Below are positions 1-25,272 of a stretch of DNA of 64,000 nucleotides, one piece after another. The notes under the pieces were generated by a model that saw only the letters and a list, made by a program, of their open reading frames with translations, made no database searches and had not been told where the DNA came from. This DNA comes from Yuukianura sp. NJ FZ-2021 (lineage: Eukaryota). The DNA is taken from assembly GCA_046563655.1 (NCBI GenBank), contig CM102289.1:806001-870000 (forward strand). Reading direction: 5' to 3'. Within the stretch, counting starts at the first letter, position 1. The number at the start of each line of letters is the position of its first letter. Position numbers and translations under genes: made by a program.

Positions 1-816
1 TAAACTAATTGAAATGAACAAGTATCCTCTAGCGTCTCAAACACAAACTGCTCTGGTCTTCAGCTTCCGTGATGGACCGTCATGGTCACTCATCCTCAGA
101 GAGTATATTGCTCAAGCATCAACTGCCGAACTCAAGACGCTGCTAGAATCGCTGAAGAAAATCAATGAGCTTTGGGTTGTTCCGGAATTCAAAGAGGCTT
201 GGCTCAAAGTTTCCGAAAAATTTCCAAACTTCAGGCACATTTGTCCCATTCCGCTCGGGAACTGAACAAAACCGAACATTCTCAGCAAAGCTAAGTTGTA
301 TCAGCGCAAGATTGATGAAATCAGGTTCAGCAACTTGTCTAAAACAAGACTATTAGCTTCACATAAGCTACTTTAAGATAAGTATAGATTAGGATTAAGA
401 TTCAAAGGGTTATGCTAGGTTACAACAGCAAAGATTTCTTTTGCTAACCTAACAAAAGGCGTTGAAATTGGAGTTGCAATTTGCAACACGATACATAACA
501 TAGTTTTACCCAAGGTTACTATAGCAACATCTTCTTTAAAGACCAACCTTGGTTTTACCCGAGAAAGTTGCAGCAAAAGAGATGGCATCGCGGCAAAAAC
601 TTGAATCGAATGCAAGTCTATCTCCGGGTTTCGTAAAACTATTTTTCCGTTCCTCATTCATAAATAAGCAAGGAAATACGCTAAAGAGTCACCTGGTTAA
701 TGATTCGTCCGCGATGCCACTCAATTTTAATTATGTCCACGCTACTAGATCAATTTTAGTTATCTTTCTGGTGGTTTTTAGTCACACTCGAGTCTAAAAT
801 TTTAGTATGTCCCTTG

Positions 817-885: not shown

Positions 886-2904
886 ACATTTTAGGATTGG
901 TTATTGGTTGCACTTAAACATCCCCGAATTTTTTAAAGTCCAACCCCGCTTTGAAACATGGTTTTGAACTGCTTGAAAAACGCAAACGTTCGAAAATTCT
1001 AAATGGCGCATCATACTGACCCTGGGAGGTGTGGCAGGAACTTATTTCCGCTCTCTTTTCTCGCCGTTTCCTTTTTTTGTATTTAGTCGACATTGGAGGA
1101 TCCGAAAGTAAAAGTTCACAAAGTTGTATTATGTACACCAAATATAAATATTAGCAGTGGAGCCCAAGAGATCCGCTCTCAAGTAGCGAATGCGGCAGTC
1201 AAATTGGGTGAATGTCACTCCTTGGTCACCAGTCATCAACTAAAGCGAAGTCCCATAATTGATCAACCGTGATCGGCTTTTCGTGCTGGTGAAAGCAAAG
1301 ATTAGAAACAATATGGCTACATACAATTCATGCACACAAAATGCGAGGCATGCCGGCACTCAAATTTATGAACAAAGCTGTAGCGCGTGAGCTACATTGA
1401 GAATGAAAAACACAAGTTCTCGTCCACTCTTTTGAAGCTTTTGACGTTGTCATCCCCTTCTGATTTTAAACTAATTCTGAACAAAAACTAAAAAAAGTAG
1501 AATGGCATTACTCATTGTCATTGGCATCTTATTTTCTTAGTAGGTGTAGGAAATACAATTTGTATTTCCGACTGTCAAGGCACCTTGACTTTTCTCGAAG
1601 TGATTTAGGCTCAAGATTACCTTCGAAGATGTCATGGATTCTTTGATTGAATCCGAGTAATTGTTTAATGAGTTTTCTGGTCTTGTTTTAATGGTCTTCT
1701 GTTTTGTTTCTAAGTGCGTATTTATCAATTATGGGGAAAATTAGAGAAGTGTGGAGTAAGTACTTTTGTCGAAAAGAACTACCTGACTCGTATGCGCTTA
1801 TTAGCAATTATGTATTAGTACTTAACTTGGTATATGTCTTTGTTTCTTACAAAATCGTTTGCTTTTGTGCTTGATTCTGGGCTTCTAAGTCGATGACTTA
1901 TTGAATTGTGTTCCTATTCTCATTTTTCATGGTACGTTCTCATTTGTTCATGTGATTGTTTTTTGGTTTTTCCTCTGGAATCCGCAAATTCCGCTTTTTG
2001 TTGAGGCCCACGCAAATTTTGCAAAAACGGTTGTAGCACACTGGAATTGCAATTGATGTAGCCAAAGTAGTGAAAGTGGTAATCACTCAGTAGTGGTTAT
2101 AATTGGCGGTAAGCAAGTTTTAACATCTGTTACAGCGGTAGAGAAGGTCCTTTCTTAAGATTATGGAAGTTCTACTGATAAACTCTTTTAGGGAGAATAT
2201 TTTTCGTCTTGTACAAAACGTTTTTTTAAGTCACGAATGAAGCGAAAAATGAACAACGGATCAACGTTTTTTGAAATTAAGCTTTACAAAAACTGCTTTT
2301 GCAACGACCAGTGGTTGTGGTCAGCTGAAGAGTGCTTGAGAGTTAAAGGACAAATGCTTGTGCAAAGTGTTATGCCTTAAACTAAGAGAGTGTGCCACCT
2401 TGACTCATGCGCAGTCTTTAGAAAATGTCATTGTCAACAAGGTAAAAGTGACCAAAGAGTCAACGATCTCCATTTCAAATTCGATTTTTACTTTACTTGA
2501 ACTTTAACTGAAACATACATTCAAAATCAAGCAAAAATTCCATCACACTTTCAAAATTTTCAAAGCAACTTACTGCGCACACAACAGAGATGGTCCACGT
2601 GACTCAGTGAGATTCCAGAAAAATGACGCATGGAATTTTCAGTGGAAGTATCCAAAACTTTTGGTAGAAGAACCAGAATTGGCTTGTTTAATTCCAAATT
2701 GAACTGAAAAATATCAAATATTTCTTAAAGTAAGTTAGGTTTTTAAGTTATTACGTAAATTTTAGCAATTGCTTGGTTCACTCCAACTGAAAGCAGACTT
2801 CTTTGCCAATCTTTTTGTTTCTGATTCAAAGTTCTAAATGAAAATTGTATTCACAAGTGACACGAGTCGCATGTGCAGAAACCCAAACTTGGAAAATAGA
2901 AATT

Positions 2905-3247
2905 TCATTTATTTGCTTGTTTGAAACAAAAACTTTAAAAAAGCACCGTGATCTTACGGCACACGTATGGATCCCTGCTGCGTGTCCAACCACAGACGAC
3001 GCTCGCAGTGTCCGGACAGGGGATGGCTTATACAGGGCAGCGGGGTACTTGCAAACCCCGGTGCACCTGTACGGCCCCTTCCAGTCCCTTAAATGAGGCT
3101 AATAAGGCGCCCCCGGACTCAAGCCGGGCTCCGGAGAAGGAGGATACCCATTACCCCAGCCGCGTTAGGCTCAACTAACCCCCCTAGCCCCCACCAGAAC
3201 GCAAGCGCTCCAGTGACTGACTGAGGGCTCCCCTCCGTAGGCCTTTC
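2905..3247 (-). ncRNA. Candidate structured ncRNA, terminal exon copy B1
   Basis: GC-rich island in AT-rich DNA. On the minus strand it starts after TTTCTTCTCAG| (3247), folds into several G-U-containing hairpins, and ends with a hairpin, a U-run and AATAAA (2913-2908). No reading frame is conserved with copy B2. Confidence 0.55.
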
Positions 3248-3969
3248 CTGAGAAGAAAGATCAATTTAAAAAACCAAAAAAACACGCATCACTTTACCTT
3301 TTTTTTTTTTGAAAAAGACTCTTTTTGATAAAAAAAAACATCAAATGAAAAGAGCATCCAACCGCTTTCCAAAATTGAAATCCTTCATTTAAAAAAAAAC
3401 ACTTTCACCTAAATTTTAACTTTTCGATCATCATGAAATCTCATTTTTTTGAAGTTTCACTTAAGTATGATCAAACTTTTTAACCTTAAGCTAAAAATTC
3501 ACAGTGAGAACCAAGTTTAGACTTTTTTATTTGCCGCTTTTTTTAATATGAAAATATTTGGATGATAGGAGTGTATTGGAAATAAGATTGTGACCTGTCT
3601 TCGGAGGTTGTGAATGTATTGGTGACCTGGGTCCAATCTCCACACAATTTTGTCCCTCTCTCTGGGTTCTGATCCTATTTGAGTCGTTTGTCAGCGGATG
3701 AAGTTCATTCCGTGTTAAATCACACCCTCCCCACCCTCCAAGTCCCCTGTAAGTCCTCACGGGGCTCTCAAAGGAATCAATCTTTTCACCAACACCTAAC
3801 TAGCCCACAGTCAGGCTCACTTTCTCACCTTTCTCTTTTCGGCTCTCAACCAAGCTCAAACTTCTTGTTTCAACCTAAATTTGTTGGTATTTGGTCAATA
3901 CCAATTAAACTTTCCCGTCTTACCTAACTTTTTAAGCTAAATTCAAGAAAAACTTAATAAAAAACTTAC

Positions 3970-4178
3970 CTTGCGATTTCTGGTTTTTCCAAAAGTTGAA
4001 ACGGGCTTGCGAATGCGTCCGACGGGCCACTGATGGGTGCTTCTCACCGTTGGAATGGGTCAAAAGTTGACCTCGGGGTGACCCCTCTTCAAAAGTTCTC
4101 TATCATTGAAAAAACCTTAAAAAAACCTTCGAAAATCAAAACAAGTCGTCCGAATCAAGTTTTGAAAAGCGGGAAAAC
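3970..4178 (-). ncRNA. Candidate upstream non-coding exon A of the structured RNA locus
   Basis: Ends AGAAATCGCAAG|GTAAGT, a strong donor at 3969. Homologous to 4729-4932 (GAGGTCAACTTYTGACCCA...TGAGAAG). The 5' boundary is approximate. Confidence 0.45.
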
Positions 4179-4728
4179 CAAAAATCGGATTTTCTCACTA
4201 TGACTTTCACTTTTCTTTGTTTTCTTTGCACGCCTCACTGACCATTAATTTGAGCCGGCTAAATTGTAAGACTAAATTGTAGACTTTGTTTTTGAATTTT
4301 TAAAAAACTTTTTTAACTTTTTGAAATTGCTGTTTGCCCAAAAAATACGGAGATTTTTGAAATTTCCCTGGAGGTCTGTGTCTCTCATTTCAGTTTTGTT
4401 CTGACATCTTGCTCTTCTCTTACTCTCGGAATGAATTAAATTCAAAATTGGTGGAAAAACTTTGTTTTGTGTATAAATTTCGTTTGTGTAGAGGAAAAGA
4501 GTGAAAGTACACGCAGTGACGTGGTTTACGGAACGCAAGGGAGAACACACGAGCTATCATGCACTGGACTATGGACTTTCTCCCAAAAACTAACCTAACC
4601 TTCCCGTCGCACCTAACTTTTAAAGGTAAATTTAAGAAAAAGTTAATAGGCCTAACCTTGTCTAACTTCCTCTGAAACCTAACCGCTCACAAGCTTATCC
4701 TACAAGAAATAGACAAACATTTTCTTAC

Positions 4729-4932
4729 CTGCCGATTTCTAGTTTTACGAGTTATGTAGAGGGCTTGTCGCAGAGTCCGGCGGCTTAGGTTCGGTGGTGG
4801 GGCCTTCTCAGCGTAGGACTGGGTCAGAAGTTGACCTCGAATGACCTCTCTTCAAAAGCTCTCTTTGAAACAGAAAAACCTTGGGAACTTCTTGCAAGCA
4901 GCTTTTGAAGAGAAGTGACGAGAGGGAAAATC
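4729..4932 (-). ncRNA. Paralogous upstream non-coding exon A'
   Basis: Ends AGAAATCGGCAG|GTAAG, donor at 4728. Contains a 16-bp stem CUUCUCUUCAAAAGCU/AGCUUUUGAAGAGAGG. The downstream intron piece (4595-4650) is homologous to 3908-3960. Confidence 0.45.
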
Positions 4933-5459
4933 TTTTACAGAAAAGCATGATACCTGCTGTGGCTGGAGGTCATTCCCTTCAAACCCAGCAAAAGTATCAT
5001 GTGAATTTAAAAAGTTTATTTAAAAATTTATCATAGGTAATTAAAAAGTGGACTGAAGCCCAGTATCATTTCCATTTTACTTCTTCAGATGAGATTGGGA
5101 AGCAACTGGAAATGCAAAGGGTCCATGCCAATACATCGAAAAATGAAAGAAAAGTTTTCCAAAGTGAGTTTCAAAATTTCTGTTCAAAATTTGAAAAAGG
5201 GGTATGAATTTTGAAGTTTGAGAACAATGTATTCGTTGGCGATTCAAAAGTGTGACCATGGTTACAGTCCGGTTGATTTACGCGTAGAAGCATCCGATTC
5301 GGATATTAATGTCGAATGACGGATGACGAATTGGTTCAAGTTTCAACTACACATTCATGTAAAACCTCAACAATGTACATTTTTTTTTAAACTTACAAGC
5401 TAACGTTTGATCGCCGCTCTCGCCTTGGAGTCAAGAGCGGGAAAATAGAAATTTCATTT

Positions 5460-5798
5460 AATTTATTTGTTTGAAACAAAAACTTAAAAAAAAACGCACC
5501 ATCGTGACCTTCCAGCACACATGGATCCCTGCTGCGTGTCCAACCACAGACGACGCTCGCAGGGTCCGGACAGGGGATGGCTTATACAGGGCAGTGGGTA
5601 TTCGCAAACGCAGAAACGCCCATCCTGCCCTTTCCAGTCCCTTAAATCAGGCTAATAAGGCGCCCCCGGACTCAAGCCGGGCCCCGGAGAAAAAGGATAC
5701 ACATTGCCCCAGCGGCGTTAGGTTCAACTTATCCCACAGCCCTCACCAGAACTCATGCGCCCCAGTGACTGAGTGCGGGTTCCCCTCCGGAGACCTTC
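5460..5798 (-). ncRNA. Candidate structured ncRNA, terminal exon copy B2
   Basis: Starts after TTTTCTCAG| (5798) and has the same architecture as B1 with pairing-preserving changes. Ends with a U-run and AATAAA (5467-5462). Homology to the B1 intron ends at ~6185. Confidence 0.55.
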
Positions 5799-6493
5799 CT
5801 GAGAAAATAAAATCAATTAAACAACAAAACAGACATTTCATTTTCACATACTCAACATTCTACAGCGACTTCCAAATCGGAAACTTACGATTCTGGTGAA
5901 GCCAATGACCTTGTAGATTTCAAAAGGAGGTACGAGCTGCCGCAAACTAAAAAAATCAAAACATTATTTATGAAACAGAACATCAAATGAAAAGAGTTTC
6001 CAAAATTGAAATCCTTCATTTAAAAAAAACACTTTCACCTAAATTTTAACTTTTCGATCATCATGAAATCTTATTTTTTTTAAAGTTTCATTTAAGTACG
6101 CTCAAACTCTTTCATTTTAAGCTAAAAAATCACACTGAAAACAAAGTCGGACTTTTATTTCCGCTTTTTTTAAATGTGAAAATAATTGGTGCTTATCTCC
6201 TGACTGCGTTTTAGTGAAATTAAAAACCGAAATTTGGCAAGTAAAGAGTGGATGATGCATCATAGTCGTATTGTTTGAGTGCATCGAAGGGTGAGTATGT
6301 TGTTGAAATTTGGAAATTTGTTTGGAAAAAGCGTTGTTTTTATAACTCCGGAGAACCCTGGTGCTGAACTAAATAAAACTGCTTCACGTTACGAATCGTT
6401 TTGTCCAACACCATTACAACATTAATCTTCTTGAACTTTTTTTTTGACTTTCCTGATGTCGACAGAAGTCGGGTCAAATATCGGGTGGCTATC

Positions 6494-7072
6494 ATATGTA
6501 TATATATATATATATATATGTTTATTGGGGGGAGCAGTCACCTATATTTAGGTGACTGACTCACGCTGAGCATTCACTTATACGGAATATTTCAACATCA
6601 ACCCCTTTAGAAACAGCGTTATTTTTTGTCCTTTGCGACCAAACACTCATTATGGTAATCCAATTGCTATCATTATACGGAGGTCGTCCGTATTCTGATA
6701 AACAAATCAGATTGAATGAGTATTTTTTGTCTATGGACTGGTTCAAGGAGTAGTAATTTGTAACCACCACAGACTGCGAAGCTCTTACCTGCTGCTCGAA
6801 AGGATTACAGACCTCTGACTCAAGGCCAGCTTGGTACTGTAACACAGCAGGCAGTTCTTGCAGAAGCGGTCGCCCCAACACACACTCCTTTATCTTGGGG
6901 TGTCCACAGAGCAGCCCCAGGAAAGGAGAGAAGTCCAGCACTTGTCTCCCTGCTTCGGGACAGGGAGAACCCACGGCCTCGACTTCTTTTTTCCTTCCCC
7001 AGGGGCTGGTTGCGAACTCACGTCGGCCAGTGGAAAAGCATTGACGGCTTAACCACTGAGCCAACTCGCCCC
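6494..7072 (-). mobile_element. tRNA-derived SINE (~580 bp) with (TA)n tail
   Basis: Minus-strand head GGGGCGAGTTGGCTCAGTGGTTAAG (A box) ... GAGTTCGCAACC (B box). The 3' end has a stem-loop AGTCACCTA/TAGGTGACT, AATAAA and an (AT)n tail. A perfect 13-bp TSD TCGGGTGGCTATC lies at 6481-6493 and 7073-7085. Confidence 0.9.
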
Positions 7073-8728
7073 TCGGGTGGCTATCGCTACCACACTGACG
7101 GCTCCGGTTTGGTCACAGCCTTTGATTTCACACAGGAATTAATGTTGGTGCGTATTTGCTTTATTTCAGCATATACTTCACACTCTTCCTCGGTAATTGG
7201 AGCGTTGGAAACTCTGACACCTTCCACTTGTGTTAACCCTTGGACACTTCGAAAAAACGCAGATAAAGCTGAAAAAGCACACCCAGATGGAATACTGAAA
7301 TAAGTTTAAATGAACATTTACGGAGTTTAGCATGGTTTCTCCATAAATTCCATACTATTGTGTTCGGTTCGGTTATACTTTACTATTCCACAGTTTCTTA
7401 TGAGTCTCTTACGTTATGACGTTTTTCACAATAAAAGCTTACCTTGATATCTTAGATCGTGTATTTTAAGTTGTTCAGCGCTAATGTATCAGAGTCCTCG
7501 CGCAGTGTCGTTTCTTTCGAAGTACTCTCCTATGGTGTCGTACCGTATGTAGGGCCAATACGTTCTTTGTCTGGTGAACTCTAGCAGGGCGACATGGCCA
7601 TAAACATGCAAGAAGCCGCTTATTCTGTCGCTATAGTACATCGTGTGGAAGACTGAAATTTTGTTTGACATGGGCAGGTCTTTTAGCAGTGTATTGGAGT
7701 ATTGGAAACCCCTGGGCGTAAAGTAAACCGCAGCTCCCCGACGAAGTGGTTGTGGTTTGATGGTACAATCATTGTGTTGATGTACACCTCAAGATCACCC
7801 AACTTTACGCCATAACCCACAGCCGCCATTGTACTCTGCAAATACTTCAACAAGTTCTATAATAATCTTATCTCCTGATCTTTGCGAAATGCGAAATAGT
7901 ACTAAGCAAGAAATAGGCCCATACTTGCATACAAAGGCAATTCCCATGAAAAAATTGGTGAATATTTCGCGAATTTTTGAAATATTTTATAAATAAATTG
8001 TTCAGAATAATGAATAACTAAACGAAAGCCTCATATTGGGTAAGTTTCTGCATTCGCTTTTGAATAAGTCACTTGCGGTGTAAAAGGTTTGAGGAAAATA
8101 CACTTAAGAGTGCGTAAGGAAACGTTACAGGGGGTACGTTCAACCATTCCATACTTCTCTTTTAGATACTCTCACTCGTATGTATAATGTGCATAGGATA
8201 ATATGCGATAAGTGCATAATGTTGCCAAGATGGTTTTAGTGCGTTAAATTTATGCACGTAAAATGTAAAGCTATTATAGCTATCCATTACGTCGTTCCTT
8301 CCTACTTCCTTTGAAAGTGACCTTCAGAAAGTATCAGTCAAAAGCATATTTTGAGAAAACGCGAATAAGAAATTTCCCCTTTCACCTCTATGTAAGATCA
8401 CAATTTCCAATTTCCCTTCTTCAAAAAGGGAAATTAGCAATTTCGTGAGTACGCGGAATTTTTTGAAACCTAAAAAAGACGAGTTTCCACTATCCACTAT
8501 TCCAGTTCTGCTTTTGGTCTAACTGTATGAAGTCTTCACTGTATCCTGTTTTGATAGGTTGAATGCAAAAAGACAAGCGAATAAATTACACGCACAATTT
8601 TATTTCACAAAACGCGAATGACATGGTTCACTTTGGATGAAATTAATTTAATTGTCGTCTGAATAATGTCAACCCTACTACTGTTCTGGCGTGCTTAGGT
8701 TTAAACGTATTTACATTAGATTAATTCA

Positions 8729-9029: not shown

Positions 9030-9221
9030 TTCTGAAACAATCAACATGTTATTTCAGTTTATCTTTTGAAGCAAAGTACATCGTGACACTGTCCACACCT
9101 TTAATTTGATTCGGTTTCGTTTAGGACATGAGGGAGAGCCCGGTAGTTGCAAAGATCGTGAAATCATGCCACACGACCAATCAACTGTGTGAAACTTGGC
9201 TTCTGAATTAATCTACTAACT

Positions 9222-9580
9222 AAAACCGCGTCTGAAGCCTCCTTTCCCTGCTGACATTGGGGTATTCGGTTGTCCAACAACAGTGACCAACGTTGAAACC
9301 GTCGCTATGGCCCGTGCAATTTGTCGGCGCGGTGGAACATGGTTTCTGTCCTTTGGCAGGCCCCGTAACTCGGGAACGAAGTTCTTCAATATCTCTGGGC
9401 ATGTAAAATACCCATGCACCGTTGAAGAAGAGATGTCAATTCCACTAAAGTAAGTTAAACTAATTACATAATACCAATTACCGCTTTCGTCTGCTTTGAA
9501 TTTGCGCTAATTTTGTTAATATGATGTATTTTTAGGGAGTTGATTGAGCGCCATTGTGGTGGAGTGACTGGCGGATTGGA
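9222..9580 (+). pseudogene. NDUFV1: Inverted partial copy of NDUFV1 (3' part of exon 5, intron, start of exon 6)
   Basis: Aligns to the reverse complement of 19041-19403. Encodes [41 protein letters not shown]...EEEMSIPLK and retains the intron at 9450-9535. No start codon and no flanking exons. Confidence 0.93.
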
Positions 9581-18244: not shown

Positions 18245-20448
<2,204 letters not shown>

Positions 20449-21082: not shown

Positions 21083-22834
21083 AAAATTGCAAACCGAAAT
21101 TATGCATGTGAAAGCCCATCTGAAGTGTCCCAAGCTCAATTTTTCACCAAAAAATTATTTTTTTCATTTATAACTCACCAAATAGTCATTCGGGACTATC
21201 TGAGGAGTCAAAATTGCAAACCGAGATTATGCTTGTGAAAGCCCATCTGAAGTGTTCCAAGCTCAATTTTTCACCAAAAAATTATTTTTTTCATTAAATA
21301 CTCCTCAAAAAGTCATTCTGGGCTATCTGAGATGTCAAAATTGCAAACCGAGATTATGCTTGTGAAAGCCCATCTGAAGTGTTCCAAGCTCAATTTTTCA
21401 CCAAAAAATTATTTTTTTCATTAAATACTCCTCAAAAAGTCATTCTGGGCTATCTGAGATGTCAAAATTGCAAACCGAGATTATGCTTGTGAAAGCCCAT
21501 CTGAAGTGTTCCAAGCTCAATTTTTCTCCGAAAAATCCATTTTTTTCATTTATAACTCACCAAAAAGTCATTCTGGGCTATCTGAGGAGTCAAAATTGCA
21601 AACCGAGATTATGCTTGTGAAAGCCCATCTGAAGTGTTCCAAGCTCAATTTTTCACCAAAAAATATTTTTGTTCAATTAATACTCCTCAAAAAGTCATTC
21701 TGGGCTATCTGAGATGTCAAAATTGCAAACCGAGATTATGCTTCTGAAAGCCCATCTGAAGTGTTCCAAGCTCAATTTTTCACCAAAAAATTATTTTTTT
21801 CATTAAATACTCCTCAAAAAGTCATTCTGGGCTATCTGAGATGTCAAAATTGCAAACCGAGATTATGCTTGTGAAAGCCCATCTGAAGTGTTCCAAGCTC
21901 AATTTTTCTCCGAAAAATCCATTTTTTTCATTTATAACTCACCAAAAAGTCATTCTGGGCTATCTGAGGAGTCAAAATTGCAAACCGAGATTATGCTTGT
22001 GAAAGCCCATCTGAAGTGTTCCAAGCTCAATTTTTCACCAAAAAATTATTTTTTTCATTAAATACTCCTCAAAAAGTCATTCTGGGCTATCTGAGATGTC
22101 AAAATTGCAAACCGAGATTATGCTTGTGAAAGCCCATCTGACGTGTTCCAAGCTCAATTTTTCACCAAAAAATTATTTTTTTCATTAAATACTCCTCAAA
22201 AAGTCATTCTGGGCTATCTGAGATGTCAAAATTGCAAACCGAGATTATGCTTCTGAAAGCCCATCTGAAGTGTTCCAAGCTCAATTTTTCACCAAAAAAT
22301 ATTTTTGTTCATTAAATACTCCTCAAAAAGTCATTCTGGGCTATCTGAGATGTCAAAATTGCAAACCGAGATTATGCTTCTGAAAGCCCATCTGACGTGT
22401 TCCAAGCTCAATTTTTCACCAAAAAATTATTTTTTTCATTAAATACTCCTCAAAAAGTCATTCTGGGCTATCTGAGATGTCAAAATTGCAAACCGAGATT
22501 ATGCTTGTGAAAGCCCATCTGACGTGTTCCAAGCTCAATTTTTCACCAAAAAATTATTTTTTTCATTAAATACTCCTCAAAAAGTCATTCTGGGCTATCT
22601 GAGATGTCAAAATTGCAAACCGAGATTATGCTTGTGAAAGCCCATCTGAAGTGTTCCAAGCTCAATTTTTCTCCGAAAAATCCATTTTTTTCATTTATAA
22701 CTCAAAAAGTCATTCTGGGCTATCTGAGGAGTCAAAATTGCAAACCGAGATTATGCTTCAGAAAGCCCATCTGAAGTGTTCCAAGCTCAATTTTTTCACC
22801 AAAAAATATTTTTGTTCAATTAATACTCCTCAAA
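21083..22834. repeat. 127-bp satellite DNA, proximal block (~14 monomers)
   Basis: Tandem monomer AAAATTGCAAACCGAGATTATGCTTGTGAAAGCCCATCTGAAGTGTTCCAAGCTCAATTTTTCACCAAAAAATTATTTTTTTCATTAAATACTCCTCAAAAAGTCATTCTGGGCTATCTGAGATGTC. The first monomer is the most divergent. Confidence 0.99.
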
Positions 22835-22987: not shown

Positions 22988-24431
22988 TTAAGCTAGATCT
23001 GAGGCTTCTTTTAGTTTGCGTGGTGGTACAACTCTAGGACAAAGTGCGACGACATTCCGCTGAATTTGAAGCTGACTCTCTAAGCCAGGATTGATGGAAG
23101 ACAATTCTCGTTGCGAATCCGTGATCCAGGAATTAGAAAGTGATACCCCATGTTGTGAATACAAAGCTGATTGACATAAAACTTTAGCAGCGTCAACTAC
23201 TTTTTGTGGCCGTATATTTCCTGACGTGTAGTTCTTCTCCACGTGCATCTGACGGGCAAGCCGGAGATGCAGGACTGAATCGTCTGAAGGGAGGCGGGGC
23301 AGAGTTTGAACAATATTTGTAACGGAAACTGGAACATTCACAATTCTTCCCTTCGTCTTCAATTGACCTGAAAATATTGTTATTAGCAAAACTAATCAAA
23401 TTCTGAGCTTATTTCTGAACAATCGAACTGTACCTTGTGGTCCCTGGACAGCCCAAATCGCTTGAAAGACATGGTAGGGCGACACTAATCTGGCTTCCAA
23501 CCGTGTCAAAGACGCTACTTCAGATGGTACGGCCGGAAACTGGAGTCCATTGGTTAAGCACAGTCGAGAGCTATGACCAGATTTCACAGCAGCGTGGCAA
23601 GTAATACAAAATTGTCCTACAAGTTGGTTTGACGTGAAGATTGTGCTTGAGAAAGTTGTCATCAGACTTAGTACAATCGGATCTTCGTAGTTGCTTAATA
23701 GATTTTTTAAACCAGAGTCCACCACAGGAAATACATTCGTGTGATGGGCCTTCTCTGCATTTGTTTTCGAAGACCTCGACGACACAATCCCAGGACTCAT
23801 CATGAATTTGACGCAGTTGACGATGAGCTGCAGTATCTCGTTCTCGTTCCAGTTGTCTGTAGTCGTCATTTTCACGTAGTTGACGATGAGCTGCAGCATC
23901 CCGTTCTTGTTCCATTTCTCTGTAGTCGTCATTTTCACGTAGTTGACGATGAGCTGCAGCATCCCGTTCTTGTTCCATTTCTCTGTAGTCGTCATTTTCA
24001 CGTAGTTGACGATGAGCTGCAGCATCCCGTTCTTGTTCCATTTCCCTGTAGTCGTCATTTTCACGTAGTTGACGATGAGCTGCAGCATCCCGTTCTTGTT
24101 CCATTTCCCTGTAGTCGTCATTTTCACGTAGTTGACGATGAGCTGCAGCATCCCGTTCTTGTTCCATTTCTCTGTAGTCGTCATTTTCACGTAGTTGACG
24201 ATGAGCTGCAGCATCCCGTTCTTGTTCCATTTCTCTGTAGTCGTCATTTTCGCGTAGTTGACGATGAGCTGCAGCATCCCGTACTTGCTCTCCACGGCGG
24301 ATCCCTTCATCTAGCCGGGCAACTCCGTGAGAAATGATGTTTCTGCCTTGTTCTTCTTGTCTGCTAGATTCGACTGCCCTTATGAACTGCATTCGTCGTC
24401 TCGCTCTGGCTCGTCGGTGTGGATTTGACAT
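22988..24431 (-). pseudogene. Truncated Helentron RepHel N-terminus (charged repeats, Cys-rich motif, DUF6570-like domain)
   Basis: Reads ...CREGPSHECISCGGLWF..., frameshift at ~23630, CITCHAAVKSG...NGLQFPAVPSEVASLTRLEARLVSP..., intron 23433-23368, then GQLKTKGRIVNVP...LPR...IRPQKVVDAAKVLCQSALY. This pattern precedes the Rep domain in Helitron-like proteins. Rep and helicase motifs are absent. Confidence 0.78.
23812..24283 (-). repeat. Coding 63-bp tandem repeat (~7.5 copies of RDAAAHRQLRENDDYREMEQE)
   Basis: TGACGATGAG recurs at 23881, 23944 and onward, giving period 63. Copies are nearly identical. Confidence 0.97.
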
Positions 24432-25272
24432 AATTCTATCTGAAATAAAGAAATATCACGTAATTGGGTATTCCTTGATAGTGACACATAAAATTAGAAA
24501 CCACATTCTTACCCGACGAAAATGTATAAACTTGAATCTAAGATTGAGGTTATGTACTACTTAAATTATAACTGAGAATGGTGAATTAAACTGTAAACTA
24601 GACACTTGAGTGATACAGGTAAAAAACTATTGTCAGTTGATCATAATTGAGTAAAGTCATTATATGTTTAAGATGAGATCGTGTCAAAATTGCAAAAGTT
24701 CGTTTTGTAAATTACACTATGTAGCCAAAAATGTTTCAATACAATAGACAACTATTAAACAACCCCCACATAATGTATTGTCAAAGTTGCCATGGCAATA
24801 TACTATTATCACTTCTGCACTGAATTGATGTTGTTAATTTGTTGTGCACCAAATGCACAAAAATGAACGCTAGAGTGAGGGGTCGAATATGGCTTGTAAA
24901 AATCGAAATTATAAAAATTTCTAGTAACTGCAGCTTTGACCCCTGTAATGCACTATTCACATATTAAACACTTAAGCCAAATTTTCTACCCTCTGAGTTA
25001 AGTCTTAATTTAACAACGTAATTAAACATATTGCCAGAAAATGACCGGATCAAAACTTCGTTGTTTAAAGCTATATTTTGAGTGTAATCGTAACCAAAAT
25101 GTTTCCGGGAAACGACTGCACTTAGGGTGCATAAAGTGGCCGCCCATTTCCACGTTGTTAATATAACACTTTGAGTGCAATGTAGACTTAATGAAAACAC
25201 TTGAGGCATACATAACCCCCCGGACAAAATGGAGCTTATGTTTTAGCGCAAAAGATACTAAAAAAGCGAACG

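What the first reader, a model, noticed from the sequence alone, without database searches (positions are those of the whole stretch)
2905..5798. Duplicated, apparently spliced, highly structured ncRNA locus of unknown family (minus strand)
Seen: two GC-rich ~310-340-nt copies (B1 3247-2905, B2 5798-5460), each beginning at a polypyrimidine-CAG acceptor and ending in hairpin, U-run and AATAAA. Two homologous exons end in strong GTAAG donors (3970, 4729). No reading frame survives in both copies. Differences preserve pairing: (i) CCCU..AGUC..CACUGGAGCG-CUUG-CGUUCUGGUG..GGCU.AGGG becomes CCCGCA..CACUGGGGCG-CAUG-AGUUCUGGUG..UGUGGG; (ii) the closing helix CGGAGGGGAG/CUCCUUCUCCG becomes CCGGAGGGGAA/UUUUUCUCCGG; (iii) the 5' arm pairing with CUGCCCUGU is rewritten (UACAGGUGCACCGGGGU vs AGGGCAGGAUGGG) yet still pairs. 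Frequent G-U pairs point to the minus strand. I found no convincing RNase P/MRP CR-V, SRP, 7SK, hammerhead or HDV motif. Inference: a Pol II, spliced, structured lncRNA family under selection on fold, or an unrecognised structured mobile RNA.
Basis: partly seen in the sequence, partly recalled or inferred. Interest (0 to 1): 0.8.

Follow-up and report, generated by a model that had tools for sequence, protein, structure and literature searches.

The report
Duplicated GC-rich non-coding segment, unclassified
Two diverged copies of a GC-rich, non-coding stretch of about 310 bases sit 2.5 kb apart in an animal genome; they match no known RNA family, and the claimed selection on their fold did not stand up to controls.

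Summary
The two GC-rich copies are real: B1 2943-3247 and B2 5495-5798, minus strand, 86.6% identical. They lie inside a larger duplicated segment (2891-3561 and 5440-6189). The two "exon" copies with GTAAG donors are also real.

The copies are not coding. They match no Rfam family, even at E<=10, and only two copies of each part occur in the 64-kb window.

"Highly structured" and "differences preserve pairing" are mostly unsupported:
- Whole-molecule fold z-scores are -1.7 and -0.7.
- Substitutions break predicted pairs as often as randomly placed ones (P=0.69 and 0.10).
- Helices with two-sided changes are no commoner than after column shuffling (16 against 17.4).
- The GC-rich core is no better conserved than its AT-rich flanks.

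One element holds up. A 48-nt G-U-rich hairpin near the 5' end is stable only on the minus strand in both copies (z -3.3 and -2.4). It survives seven substitutions (P about 0.03).

Splicing could not be tested because no RNA run was listed.

Best guess, at low confidence: a young, lineage-specific minus-strand non-coding transcription unit. Rivals are an independent small Pol III-type RNA gene, a neutral relic, or (a few percent) an unrecognised telomerase RNA.

The parts
2943..3247 (-). B1: GC-rich core, copy 1 (about 305 nt)
   Evidence: GC 0.605. nhmmer E 1.9e-116.
5495..5798 (-). B2: GC-rich core, copy 2. It carries an internal T5 run and a 6-nt insertion near its 3' end.
   Evidence: GC 0.58. 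nhmmer E 1.1e-113.
3180..3227 (-). H1 hairpin of B1: 20 pairs including several G-U, CUUG loop
   Evidence: MFE -25.8 kcal/mol, z -3.34, 1 of 200 shuffles as stable. Plus strand -8.7, z +0.16.
5733..5779 (-). H1 hairpin of B2
   Evidence: MFE -23.3 kcal/mol, z -2.39. Plus strand -12.4, z -0.61. Stability kept despite 7 substitutions and 1 deletion, P 0.04/0.025.
3248..3266 (-). Pyrimidine tract plus CAG directly upstream of B1 (candidate 3' splice site). A TATA-like TTTAAATTGAT motif lies just upstream of it.
   Evidence: Sequence. Resembles the NDUFV1 acceptors.
5799..5818 (-). Pyrimidine tract plus CAG directly upstream of B2. A TTTAATTGAT motif lies just upstream of it.
   Evidence: Sequence.
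2891..2942 (-). T6 run (2937-2942) and AT-rich tail with AATAAA (2908-2913). Homology with copy 2 stops at 2891.
   Evidence: Tail has 43 identical columns, 3 substitutions, 1 gap.
5440..5494 (-). T9 run (5486-5494) and AT-rich tail with AATAAA (5462-5467). Homology with copy 1 stops at 5440.
3322..3561 (-). AT-rich upstream part of duplicated segment, copy 1. It contains a nearly invariant patch of about 85 nt.
   Evidence: 83.5% over 242 nt against 5964-6189. Alignment.
5964..6189 (-). AT-rich upstream part of duplicated segment, copy 2
3970..4099 (-). A1: candidate exon, AG|AGAAC acceptor and CAAG|GTAAGT donor
   Evidence: Sequence. Homology to A2.
4729..4862 (-). A2: candidate exon, AAAG|AGAGC acceptor and GCAG|GTAAGA donor
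   Evidence: Sequence..

Best explanation
The locus is a young, lineage-specific, non-coding transcription unit read from the minus strand, in a repeat-rich part of an animal (probably arthropod) genome. A segment of about 670-750 bp was duplicated 2.5 kb away. It holds an AT-rich upstream part, a GC-rich body of about 305 nt, a T-run and a poly(A) signal. A candidate exon of about 130 nt lying between the two copies was duplicated separately.

Inferred, not shown: RNA polymerase II transcribes the region; the A exons splice through their GTAAG donors to the CAG acceptor in front of B1; and B1 is the terminal exon, ending about 17 nt after AATAAA. B2 is either a second terminal exon or an internal exon.

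The only RNA structure that the sequence supports is a 48-nt G-U-rich hairpin near the 5' end of each B copy. It could be a protein-binding or processing element. The rest of the 'fold' is what any sequence of 58-60% GC gives. I found no sign that the whole molecule is held by selection.
For: - Duplication and its limits.
- Only two copies of B and of A in the 64 kb.
- Not coding. No Pfam family in any of the ORFs of 45 aa or more that lie within 2891-6189, part of a scan of 115 ORFs over 1-12.5 kb. Substitutions fall 17/17/13 over the three codon phases, p=0.71. The 145-aa plus-strand frame of B2 has 0 relatives among 1.84 billion representatives. The frames of A1 and A2 disagree at the donor.
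- No Rfam family.
- Splice-site fit. The real NDUFV1 introns in this window use GTAAG(T/A) donors and T-rich (T/C)AG acceptors. The A donors and B acceptors have the same form in both copies.
- The GC content jumps exactly at CAG|G.
- AATAAA lies 24-26 nt after the core. Homology between the copies ends 17-22 nt after it.
- The H1 hairpin is stable on the minus strand only, in both copies, and is kept across 7 substitutions.
Against: - No transcript evidence of any kind. The run search listed no RNA run, and the laid runs were DNA contigs.
- GTAAG is common here; I count five on the minus strand of 2891-6189. Pyrimidine tracts, T-runs and AATAAA are cheap in AT-rich DNA.
- The core is no better conserved (86.6%) than its tail (93.5%) or the far upstream part (83.5%). 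The near-invariant blocks inside B (1 difference in nt 119-169, 1 in nt 208-281) have a counterpart in the AT-rich upstream patch. Gene conversion explains them as well as selection does.
- B2 has lost the 3' hairpin.
- No orthologue from another species could be obtained, so conservation beyond this species complex is unknown.
Confidence: 0.4

Rival explanations
1. Each B copy is an independent small-RNA gene of about 305 nt. A 7SK/MRP/telomerase-RNA-style external promoter (Pol III type 3 or snRNA-type) drives it. The RNA starts at the G after CAG and stops at the T-run. Its 5' and 3' ends pair, and the CAG 'acceptor' and the A 'exons' are coincidences.
For: - A TATA-like motif TTTAA(A)TTGAT sits at about -26 to -16 and is kept in both copies, while the rest of the 56 aligned upstream columns is only 62.5% identical.
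- A T6 or T9 run lies directly at the end of the GC-rich body.
- B1 has no internal run of four or more T (sequence).
- B1 has a terminator-like hairpin plus T-run.
- RNAalifold pairs the 5' end with the 3' end, including one A-U to C-G double change.
- The size fits the class.
Against: - No match to 7SK, RNase MRP, RNase P, SRP or any other Rfam model at E<=10.
- B2 carries an internal T5 run (CCUUUUUCUCC), which would stop Pol III after about 110 nt. B2 also lacks the 3' hairpin.
- The region where a proximal sequence element should lie (about -40 to -65) is not homologous between the copies (indels).
- TATA-like words and T-runs are common in this AT-rich DNA.
- Helices with double changes are no more frequent than after shuffling.
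Confidence: 0.2
2. B is neutral DNA: a relic of a captured or transposed GC-rich sequence (for instance a decayed tRNA-related SINE-like piece or another repeat). It was carried along by a recent segmental duplication in a repeat-rich region. Any hairpins are by-products of composition.
For: - Core divergence equals flank divergence.
- Global fold z-scores are unremarkable.
- The pairing and covariation tests are null.
- The neighbourhood is full of repeats: a tRNA-like SINE head by eye at about 6900-7100, a Helitron-type ORF, a 38-kb satellite and a duplicated NDUFV1 fragment.
- Contigs of the DNA runs show several diverged versions and a form joining 3517 to 6164. This fits copy-number variation.
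- By eye, nt 83-143 of B1 has a D-arm-like and a T-arm-like hairpin with box-A and box-B-like words. The consensus I compared with is recalled, not from a call.
Against: - Only two copies in the window.
- Summed contig depth over B is not raised above its flanks, though this is a weak measure.
- ARAGORN and the Rfam tRNA models find nothing.
- The H1 hairpin is strand-specific, has z -3.3 and -2.4 in both copies, and keeps its stability across 7 substitutions.
- The GC-rich block is bounded exactly by a consensus acceptor in both copies.
Confidence: 0.3
3. B is an unrecognised telomerase RNA of a TTAGG-telomere arthropod. H1 is the template-boundary hairpin. The single-stranded UUGAACCUAACGC that follows in B2 holds an 8-nt template (AACCUAAC, giving GTTAGGTT). 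The purine/pyrimidine helix CGGAGGGGA/UCUCCG encloses the core.
For: - AACCTAAC is present in B2, 8-9 nt after H1. The chance of an 8-mer TTAGG template in a shuffled B2 is 0.005.
- Arthropods lead the named NDUFV1 matches, and TTAGG-type 8-mers outnumber TTAGGC and TTAGGG types 19:4:1 in the first 26 kb. Together these suggest a TTAGG organism.
- Known insect telomerase RNAs are short, escape homology search, have a P1.1 hairpin before the template, and occur as paralogue pairs (PMC11892584, abstract and passages; PMC13023368, first part of the text).
Against: - B1 has AGCCUAAC, so the 'template' differs between the copies. It also lies in one of the more variable stretches (4 differences in nt 69-87).
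- The best-kept blocks lie elsewhere.
- I could find no pseudoknot by eye between the template and the closing helix.
- Such 8-mers are locally common (19 overlapping hits in 26 kb), so the realistic chance is a few percent.
- The telomere repeat of the organism is not known to me.
- B2 is the worse-folding copy and has an internal T5 run.
Confidence: 0.03
4. B is a protein-coding exon or a UTR of a coding gene.
For: The plus strand of B2 is open for 145 codons, stop to stop.
Against: - That frame has no Met, is closed in B1 by 1-nt and 2-nt indels, and has no Pfam family.
- It has 0 relatives in 1.84 billion proteins.
- Substitutions show no codon periodicity.
- I saw no plus-strand splice sites at its ends.
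Confidence: 0.02

Closest known systems
Lineage-specific spliced long non-coding RNAs of animals
   Same: No coding potential. Consensus donor and acceptor sites, a poly(A) signal and low copy number. No detectable conservation outside close relatives.
   Different: The terminal exon is unusually GC-rich (58-60% against 38%). It carries a strongly strand-specific hairpin. Transcription itself is not shown.
Type-3 / snRNA-type small RNA genes (7SK, RNase MRP, U6; insect telomerase RNAs as described in PMC11892584 and PMC13023368)
   Same: About 300 nt, GC-rich body in AT-rich DNA, TATA-like word at about -25, T-run at the end, possible pairing between the 5' and 3' ends, and a paralogue pair.
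   Different: No covariance-model match to any of them. No shared upstream proximal element. An internal T5 run in B2. No pseudoknot found. The template word is not kept in both copies.
tRNA-derived SINEs
   Same: By eye, box-A and box-B-like words and a T-arm-like 5-bp/7-nt-loop hairpin (CCCGG-CUUGAGU-CCGGG) in the middle of B, with a T-run at the end.
   Different: The tRNA-like part is internal, not at the 5' end, and lacks an anticodon arm. ARAGORN and Rfam tRNA models are negative. Only two copies were seen.

Membership tests
Any Rfam 15 family (RNase P/MRP, 7SK, SRP, 5S, tRNA, vertebrate telomerase RNA, hammerhead, HDV-like and other ribozymes) | Covariance-model score at or above the family's gathering score | tested here: not met
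   0 matches at gathering score in 64 kb. At E<=10 on B1 and B2 alone, only chance-level rows appear: CPEB3 ribozyme 12.8 bits against a gathering score of 35; OrzO-P, Vax2os1, mir-3718 and WT1-AS, all far below gathering.
Structured RNA under selection on its fold | Substitutions between homologues preserve base pairs more often than chance (covariation) | tested here: not met
   Threading one copy on the other's MFE structure breaks 17 pairs against a null of 16.3 (P 0.69), and 13 against 16.6 (P 0.10). Runs of 4 bp or more with a double change number 16 against 17.4+-4.5 after column shuffling. Only two sequences were available, so power is low.
Structured RNA under selection on its fold | Folding energy well below that of shuffled sequence | tested here: inconclusive
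   Whole B: z -1.68 and -0.70. Local H1 hairpin: z -3.34 and -2.39 on the minus strand, +0.16 and -0.61 on the plus strand. Other sub-domains range from -0.4 to -2.6.
Spliced, polyadenylated Pol II lncRNA | Consensus splice sites and poly(A) signal in the DNA | tested here: met
   The A donors AG|GTAAG and the B acceptors Y-tract-CAG|G match the form of the NDUFV1 introns in the same window. AATAAA lies at 2908-2913 and 5462-5467.
Spliced, polyadenylated Pol II lncRNA | Junction-spanning and poly(A)-containing reads | not testable with these tools
   No RNA run was listed for this stretch. The four runs laid were DNA contigs.
Pol III type-3 small RNA gene | TATA box near -25/-30, plus a proximal sequence element near -55 | tested here: inconclusive
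   TTTAA(A)TTGAT at about -26 to -16 is kept in both copies. The region from -40 to -65 is not alignable between the copies. No snRNA promoter of this species was available for comparison.
Pol III type-3 small RNA gene | T-run terminator at the 3' end and none inside | tested here: inconclusive
   B1 meets it: T6 at the end and no internal T4. B2 does not: it has an internal T5 about 105 nt from the start.
Telomerase RNA (arthropod type) | Template complementary to more than one telomere repeat, kept in functional paralogues | tested here: inconclusive
   B2 has AACCUAAC (8 nt for TTAGG). B1 has AGCCUAAC. The species' telomere repeat is unknown.
Telomerase RNA (arthropod type) | Boundary hairpin just 5' of the template, and a pseudoknot 3' of it | tested here: inconclusive
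   The H1 hairpin ends 8-9 nt before the word. I saw no pseudoknot by eye, and no pseudoknot predictor was run.
Protein-coding exon | Shared open frame, codon periodicity of substitutions, protein relatives | tested here: not met
   17/17/13, p=0.71; 0 hits.
Transposable element / SINE | Many dispersed copies, and a match to a repeat consensus | tested here: inconclusive
   Two copies in 64 kb. Contig depth over B is not raised, but this is a poor measure. No whole genome was held and no repeat library was available. ARAGORN found 0 genes.

The most novel reading that the evidence does not exclude
B1 and B2 are genes of a so far undescribed family of about 300-nt structured small RNAs in a poorly sampled arthropod lineage. 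The boldest version is its missing telomerase RNA: H1 acts as the template-boundary hairpin and AACCUAAC in B2 is the TTAGG template. No telomerase RNA of a non-insect arthropod turned up in the papers I read.
Probability: 0.07. Interest if true: 0.8.

Novelty: new member of a known kind. Interest (0 to 1): 0.3.

Why it matters
If the locus is only a young duplicated lncRNA-like unit or a relic, it matters little beyond annotation.

It would matter if B proves to be a defined small RNA. Arthropods outside a few insect orders still lack several hard-to-find RNAs. One is telomerase RNA, which the papers read here describe as evolving too fast for homology search. A low-copy, GC-rich, Rfam-negative RNA with a strand-specific hairpin in front of a telomere-like word is the kind of candidate such searches start from.

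There is also a methodological lesson. In sequence of 58-60% GC with many G-U options, apparent 'compensatory' changes between two paralogues arise at the chance rate.

Tried and rejected
- RNA evidence: the run search listed 5 runs and none is on record as RNA ('no RNA holder listed'). Laying X1, X2, X4 and X5 gave only fragmented DNA contigs. So expression, strand, ends and junctions stay untested.
- Whole genome: none is held for this window. Genome-wide copy number could not be counted.
- Homologues elsewhere:
  - A 20-mer from the best-kept block found 3 metagenome contigs. They share only those 20 bases and have 66-71% GC, so they are chance matches.
  - A 26-mer found nothing in the prokaryote genome collection.
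  - Three look-ups of earlier findings by place and by sequence found nothing. One word look-up found nothing. A second returned only unrelated phage and bacterial items.
  - Three 15-17-mers of B, as DNA and as RNA letters, occur in no held paper.
- HDV-like ribozyme at the 5' end: one CPEB3 row at 12.8 bits in B1 only, none in B2. Rejected.
- RNase P/MRP: I tried by eye to place CR-I, CR-V and P4, and found no consistent fit. The motifs were recalled, not taken from a call.
- 5S-like words near the 5' end (GCCUACGG, GGUUAGU): noticed from memory only. The Rfam 5S model gave nothing. Rejected.
- tRNA-like module in nt 83-143: ARAGORN negative and Rfam tRNA negative. Kept only as a weak hint for the relic rival.
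- Loose ends of contigs at 2891, 2896 and 2930, blasted against the first 26 kb. One resembles the B2-side flank (86% over 21 nt). The others match nothing, so they come from places or haplotypes not in the window. No conclusion drawn.
- A-exon coding test: A1 and A2 share a frame over part of their length (RGQLLT...EK...RRT) but leave the donor in different phases. Rejected as coding.
Full report
WHAT IS THERE

The window is animal DNA with 34-44% GC. It holds a real NDUFV1 gene at about 18.5-20.2 kb on the minus strand, with introns of about 80-120 nt, GTAAG(T/A) donors and T-rich (T/C)AG acceptors. The best named relatives of one NDUFV1 exon are arthropods: an isopod at 94%, then spiders, a horseshoe crab and insects at 93%. 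Hemichordates and cnidarians follow within 1-2%, so 'arthropod' is probable rather than shown. The right-hand 38 kb is a 127-bp satellite. No whole genome is held for the window.

THE OBSERVATION

On the minus strand two GC-rich blocks stand out: B1 3247->2943 and B2 5798->5495, with GC 0.605 and 0.58 against 0.38-0.39 around them. They align with 266 identical columns, 41 substitutions and 10 gap columns, or 86.6%.

Segment 2891-3561 matches 5440-6189, at 84.8% over 402 nt and 83.5% over 242 nt. A second pair, 3908-4118 and 4597-4882, holds the two 'exons' plus about 50 nt beyond their donors, at 79.8% and 86.5%. nhmmer with profiles of both pairs finds no further copy in the 64 kb.

Both B copies begin right after a pyrimidine tract and CAG. 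Both are followed by a T-run (T6, T9) and by AATAAA 24-26 nt later. Homology between the copies stops 17-22 nt after AATAAA. The A segments end in CAAG|GTAAGT (3970) and GCAG|GTAAGA (4729), and they also have AG acceptors at 4100/4099 and 4863/4862. The described anatomy is therefore real.

One correction: the hairpin before the U-run exists in B1 only.

NOT CODING, NOT A KNOWN RNA

None of the 115 stop-to-stop frames of 45 aa or more in 1-12.5 kb that lie inside 2891-6189 has a Pfam family. The 145-codon open frame on the plus strand of B2 has no Met, is broken in B1, and has no relative among 1.84 billion representative proteins. Substitutions between the copies fall 17/17/13 over the three phases, p=0.71. 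A1 and A2 share a frame for part of their length but reach the donor in different phases.

Rfam gives nothing at gathering score in the whole window. At E<=10 it gives only chance-level rows, even when each B copy is searched alone with the laxest filters. ARAGORN finds no tRNA-like gene.

IS IT 'HIGHLY STRUCTURED' AND UNDER SELECTION ON ITS FOLD?

Mostly not, as far as two sequences can tell.
- The whole-molecule energies are low (-137 and -125 kcal/mol). Against dinucleotide shuffles they give only z -1.68 and -0.70, and the plus strand of B1 gives z -1.58.
- I threaded each copy on the MFE structure of the other and compared with the same substitutions placed at random on the same nucleotides. 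Broken pairs were 17 against a null of 16.3 (P 0.69), and 13 against 16.6 (P 0.10).
- I counted all stacked runs of 4 or more pairs that are canonical in both copies and contain a two-sided change. There are 16, against 17.4+-4.5 after shuffling alignment columns. For runs of 5 or more it is 7 against 7.5.

The core is also no better conserved than its surroundings: 86.6% against 93.5% in the AT-rich tail and 83.5% further upstream. Divergence is patchy:
- 1 difference in nt 119-169;
- 1 difference in nt 208-281;
- 15 differences in nt 170-207;
- 21 differences in nt 1-118.

The AT-rich upstream part has an equally clean patch of about 85 nt. Gene conversion between the copies therefore explains the patches as well as selection does.

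WHAT DOES HOLD UP

The 5' hairpin H1 (3180-3227 and 5733-5779) folds at -25.8 and -23.3 kcal/mol, with z -3.34 and -2.39. Only 1 and 6 of 200 shuffles fold as well. Its reverse complement folds at -8.7 and -12.4 kcal/mol, with z +0.16 and -0.61. The helix depends on G-U pairs, so it exists only in minus-strand RNA.

The two copies differ here by 7 substitutions and one deleted bulge, yet both keep the stem. Random placement of the same changes does as well in only 4% and 2.5% of trials. The hypervariable hairpin (nt 163-222) gives 7% and 3%. These are nominal values from tests chosen after looking at the data, so I read them as a hint of an RNA-level constraint on H1 and no more.

TRANSCRIPTION AND SPLICING

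These could not be tested. The run search listed five runs and none is RNA. Laid on 2600-6400, the runs gave short DNA contigs. Many were at 80-99% likeness; in X1, 93 were laid, split 33/21/23/16 by likeness class. There were also joined forms 3517>6164 and 3443>6076, which fit a haplotype or paralogue with one unit instead of two (inference). The second organism label (X4) is 99% identical where it is clean, so it is no outgroup. Summed depth over B is not above that of its flanks, which is weak evidence against a high-copy repeat.

Scans of metagenome and prokaryote collections, earlier findings and the paper library gave no homologue.

HOW IT MOST LIKELY WORKS

My best reading (0.4) is a young, lineage-specific non-coding unit transcribed from the minus strand. 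The A donors and B acceptors have exactly the form of this genome's proven introns, in both copies. The GC content steps up exactly at CAG|G. AATAAA and the end of homology sit where a cleavage site would be. H1 would be a local protein-binding or processing hairpin in the RNA. All steps after 'the signals are present' are inferred.

Rivals:
- An independent small RNA gene of about 305 nt with an external promoter and T-run terminator (0.2). For it: a TATA-like word kept at about -26 to -16, T6/T9 runs, a B1 terminator hairpin, and possible 5'/3' pairing. Against it: the internal T5 run and lost 3' hairpin of B2, the missing shared upstream element, and the Rfam blanks.
- A neutral relic in a repeat-rich, duplication-prone region (0.3). 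This fits every null test but not H1 or the exact acceptor boundary.
- A telomerase RNA (0.03). B2 carries AACCUAAC, an 8-nt TTAGG template, 8-9 nt after H1. The chance of this is 0.005 by shuffling, but such words are locally common, with 19 overlapping hits in 26 kb. B1 has AGCCUAAC, the stretch is among the variable ones, and I found no pseudoknot. The insect telomerase RNAs I read about are short, carry a boundary hairpin before the template, evade homology search and can come as paralogue pairs (PMC11892584, abstract and passages; PMC13023368, first part; PMC12921731, sections 2.4, 2.6 and 2.7, for nematodes). That is why I keep this reading alive at a few percent.
- A coding exon (0.02).

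VERDICT

The feature is real but modest. The central claim, a fold maintained by compensatory change, is not supported by the controls, except for one strand-specific hairpin. The locus belongs to no described RNA family that I could test, and no repeat library was at hand.

Interest is 0.3. It would rise sharply if RNA data showed a discrete, abundant RNA of about 300 nt.

Noticed in passing
window 25356-64000 (also 21083-22834): A 127-bp satellite: 304 copies at 98% match fill the right 38 kb of the window. A shorter array of the same unit (13.8 copies) lies at 21083-22834.
   Followed up: no
window 22988-24455, minus strand: Long frames carrying DUF6570, a domain I recall as typical of Helitron-type helicase proteins. 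They are interrupted by a 63-bp tandem repeat (7.6 copies, 23807-24287) that stays open in several frames.
   Followed up: no
window 9128-9580 (+) versus 19041-19811 (-): An inverted partial duplicate of the NDUFV1 gene, about 90% identical. It includes intron sequence, so it is a DNA-level duplication and not a retrocopy.
   Followed up: partly
window about 6900-7100, minus strand: A GC-rich stretch that by eye looks like the tRNA-related head of a SINE (GGCTCAGTGGTTAAGCC ... GAGTTCGCAACC, box-A and box-B-like; consensus recalled). ARAGORN calls no tRNA there.
   Followed up: no
window 4590-4690: A cluster of degenerate TTAGG-type telomere-like words on the minus strand (GGTTAGGTTAG, GTTAGGT, GGTTAGGCC, GGTTAGGTT) in the sequence after the A2 donor. 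TTAGG-type 8-mers outnumber TTAGGC and TTAGGG types 19:4:1 in the first 26 kb.
   Followed up: partly
window 2-262, plus strand: A weak match to the C-terminal region of Rough deal / KNTC1 (Rod_C, E 3.9e-4, below the curated cut-off). A plus-strand gene may end shortly before B1.
   Followed up: no
window 5860-5900, minus strand: Only in copy 2: an extra insert upstream of B2 (about 46 nt in the alignment), ending in AATC|GTAAGT 87 nt before the B2 acceptor. This would make an intron of the size usual in this genome. B2 also has a possible donor, ATG|GTGCGT, created by its 6-nt insertion at 5495-5500.
   Followed up: no
window 3380-3470 and 6010-6100, minus strand: An AT-rich patch of about 85 nt upstream of each B copy is nearly invariant between the copies (2-3 differences), while its surroundings differ by about 16%. 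It could be a regulatory element, part of a transcript, or a gene-conversion tract.
   Followed up: no
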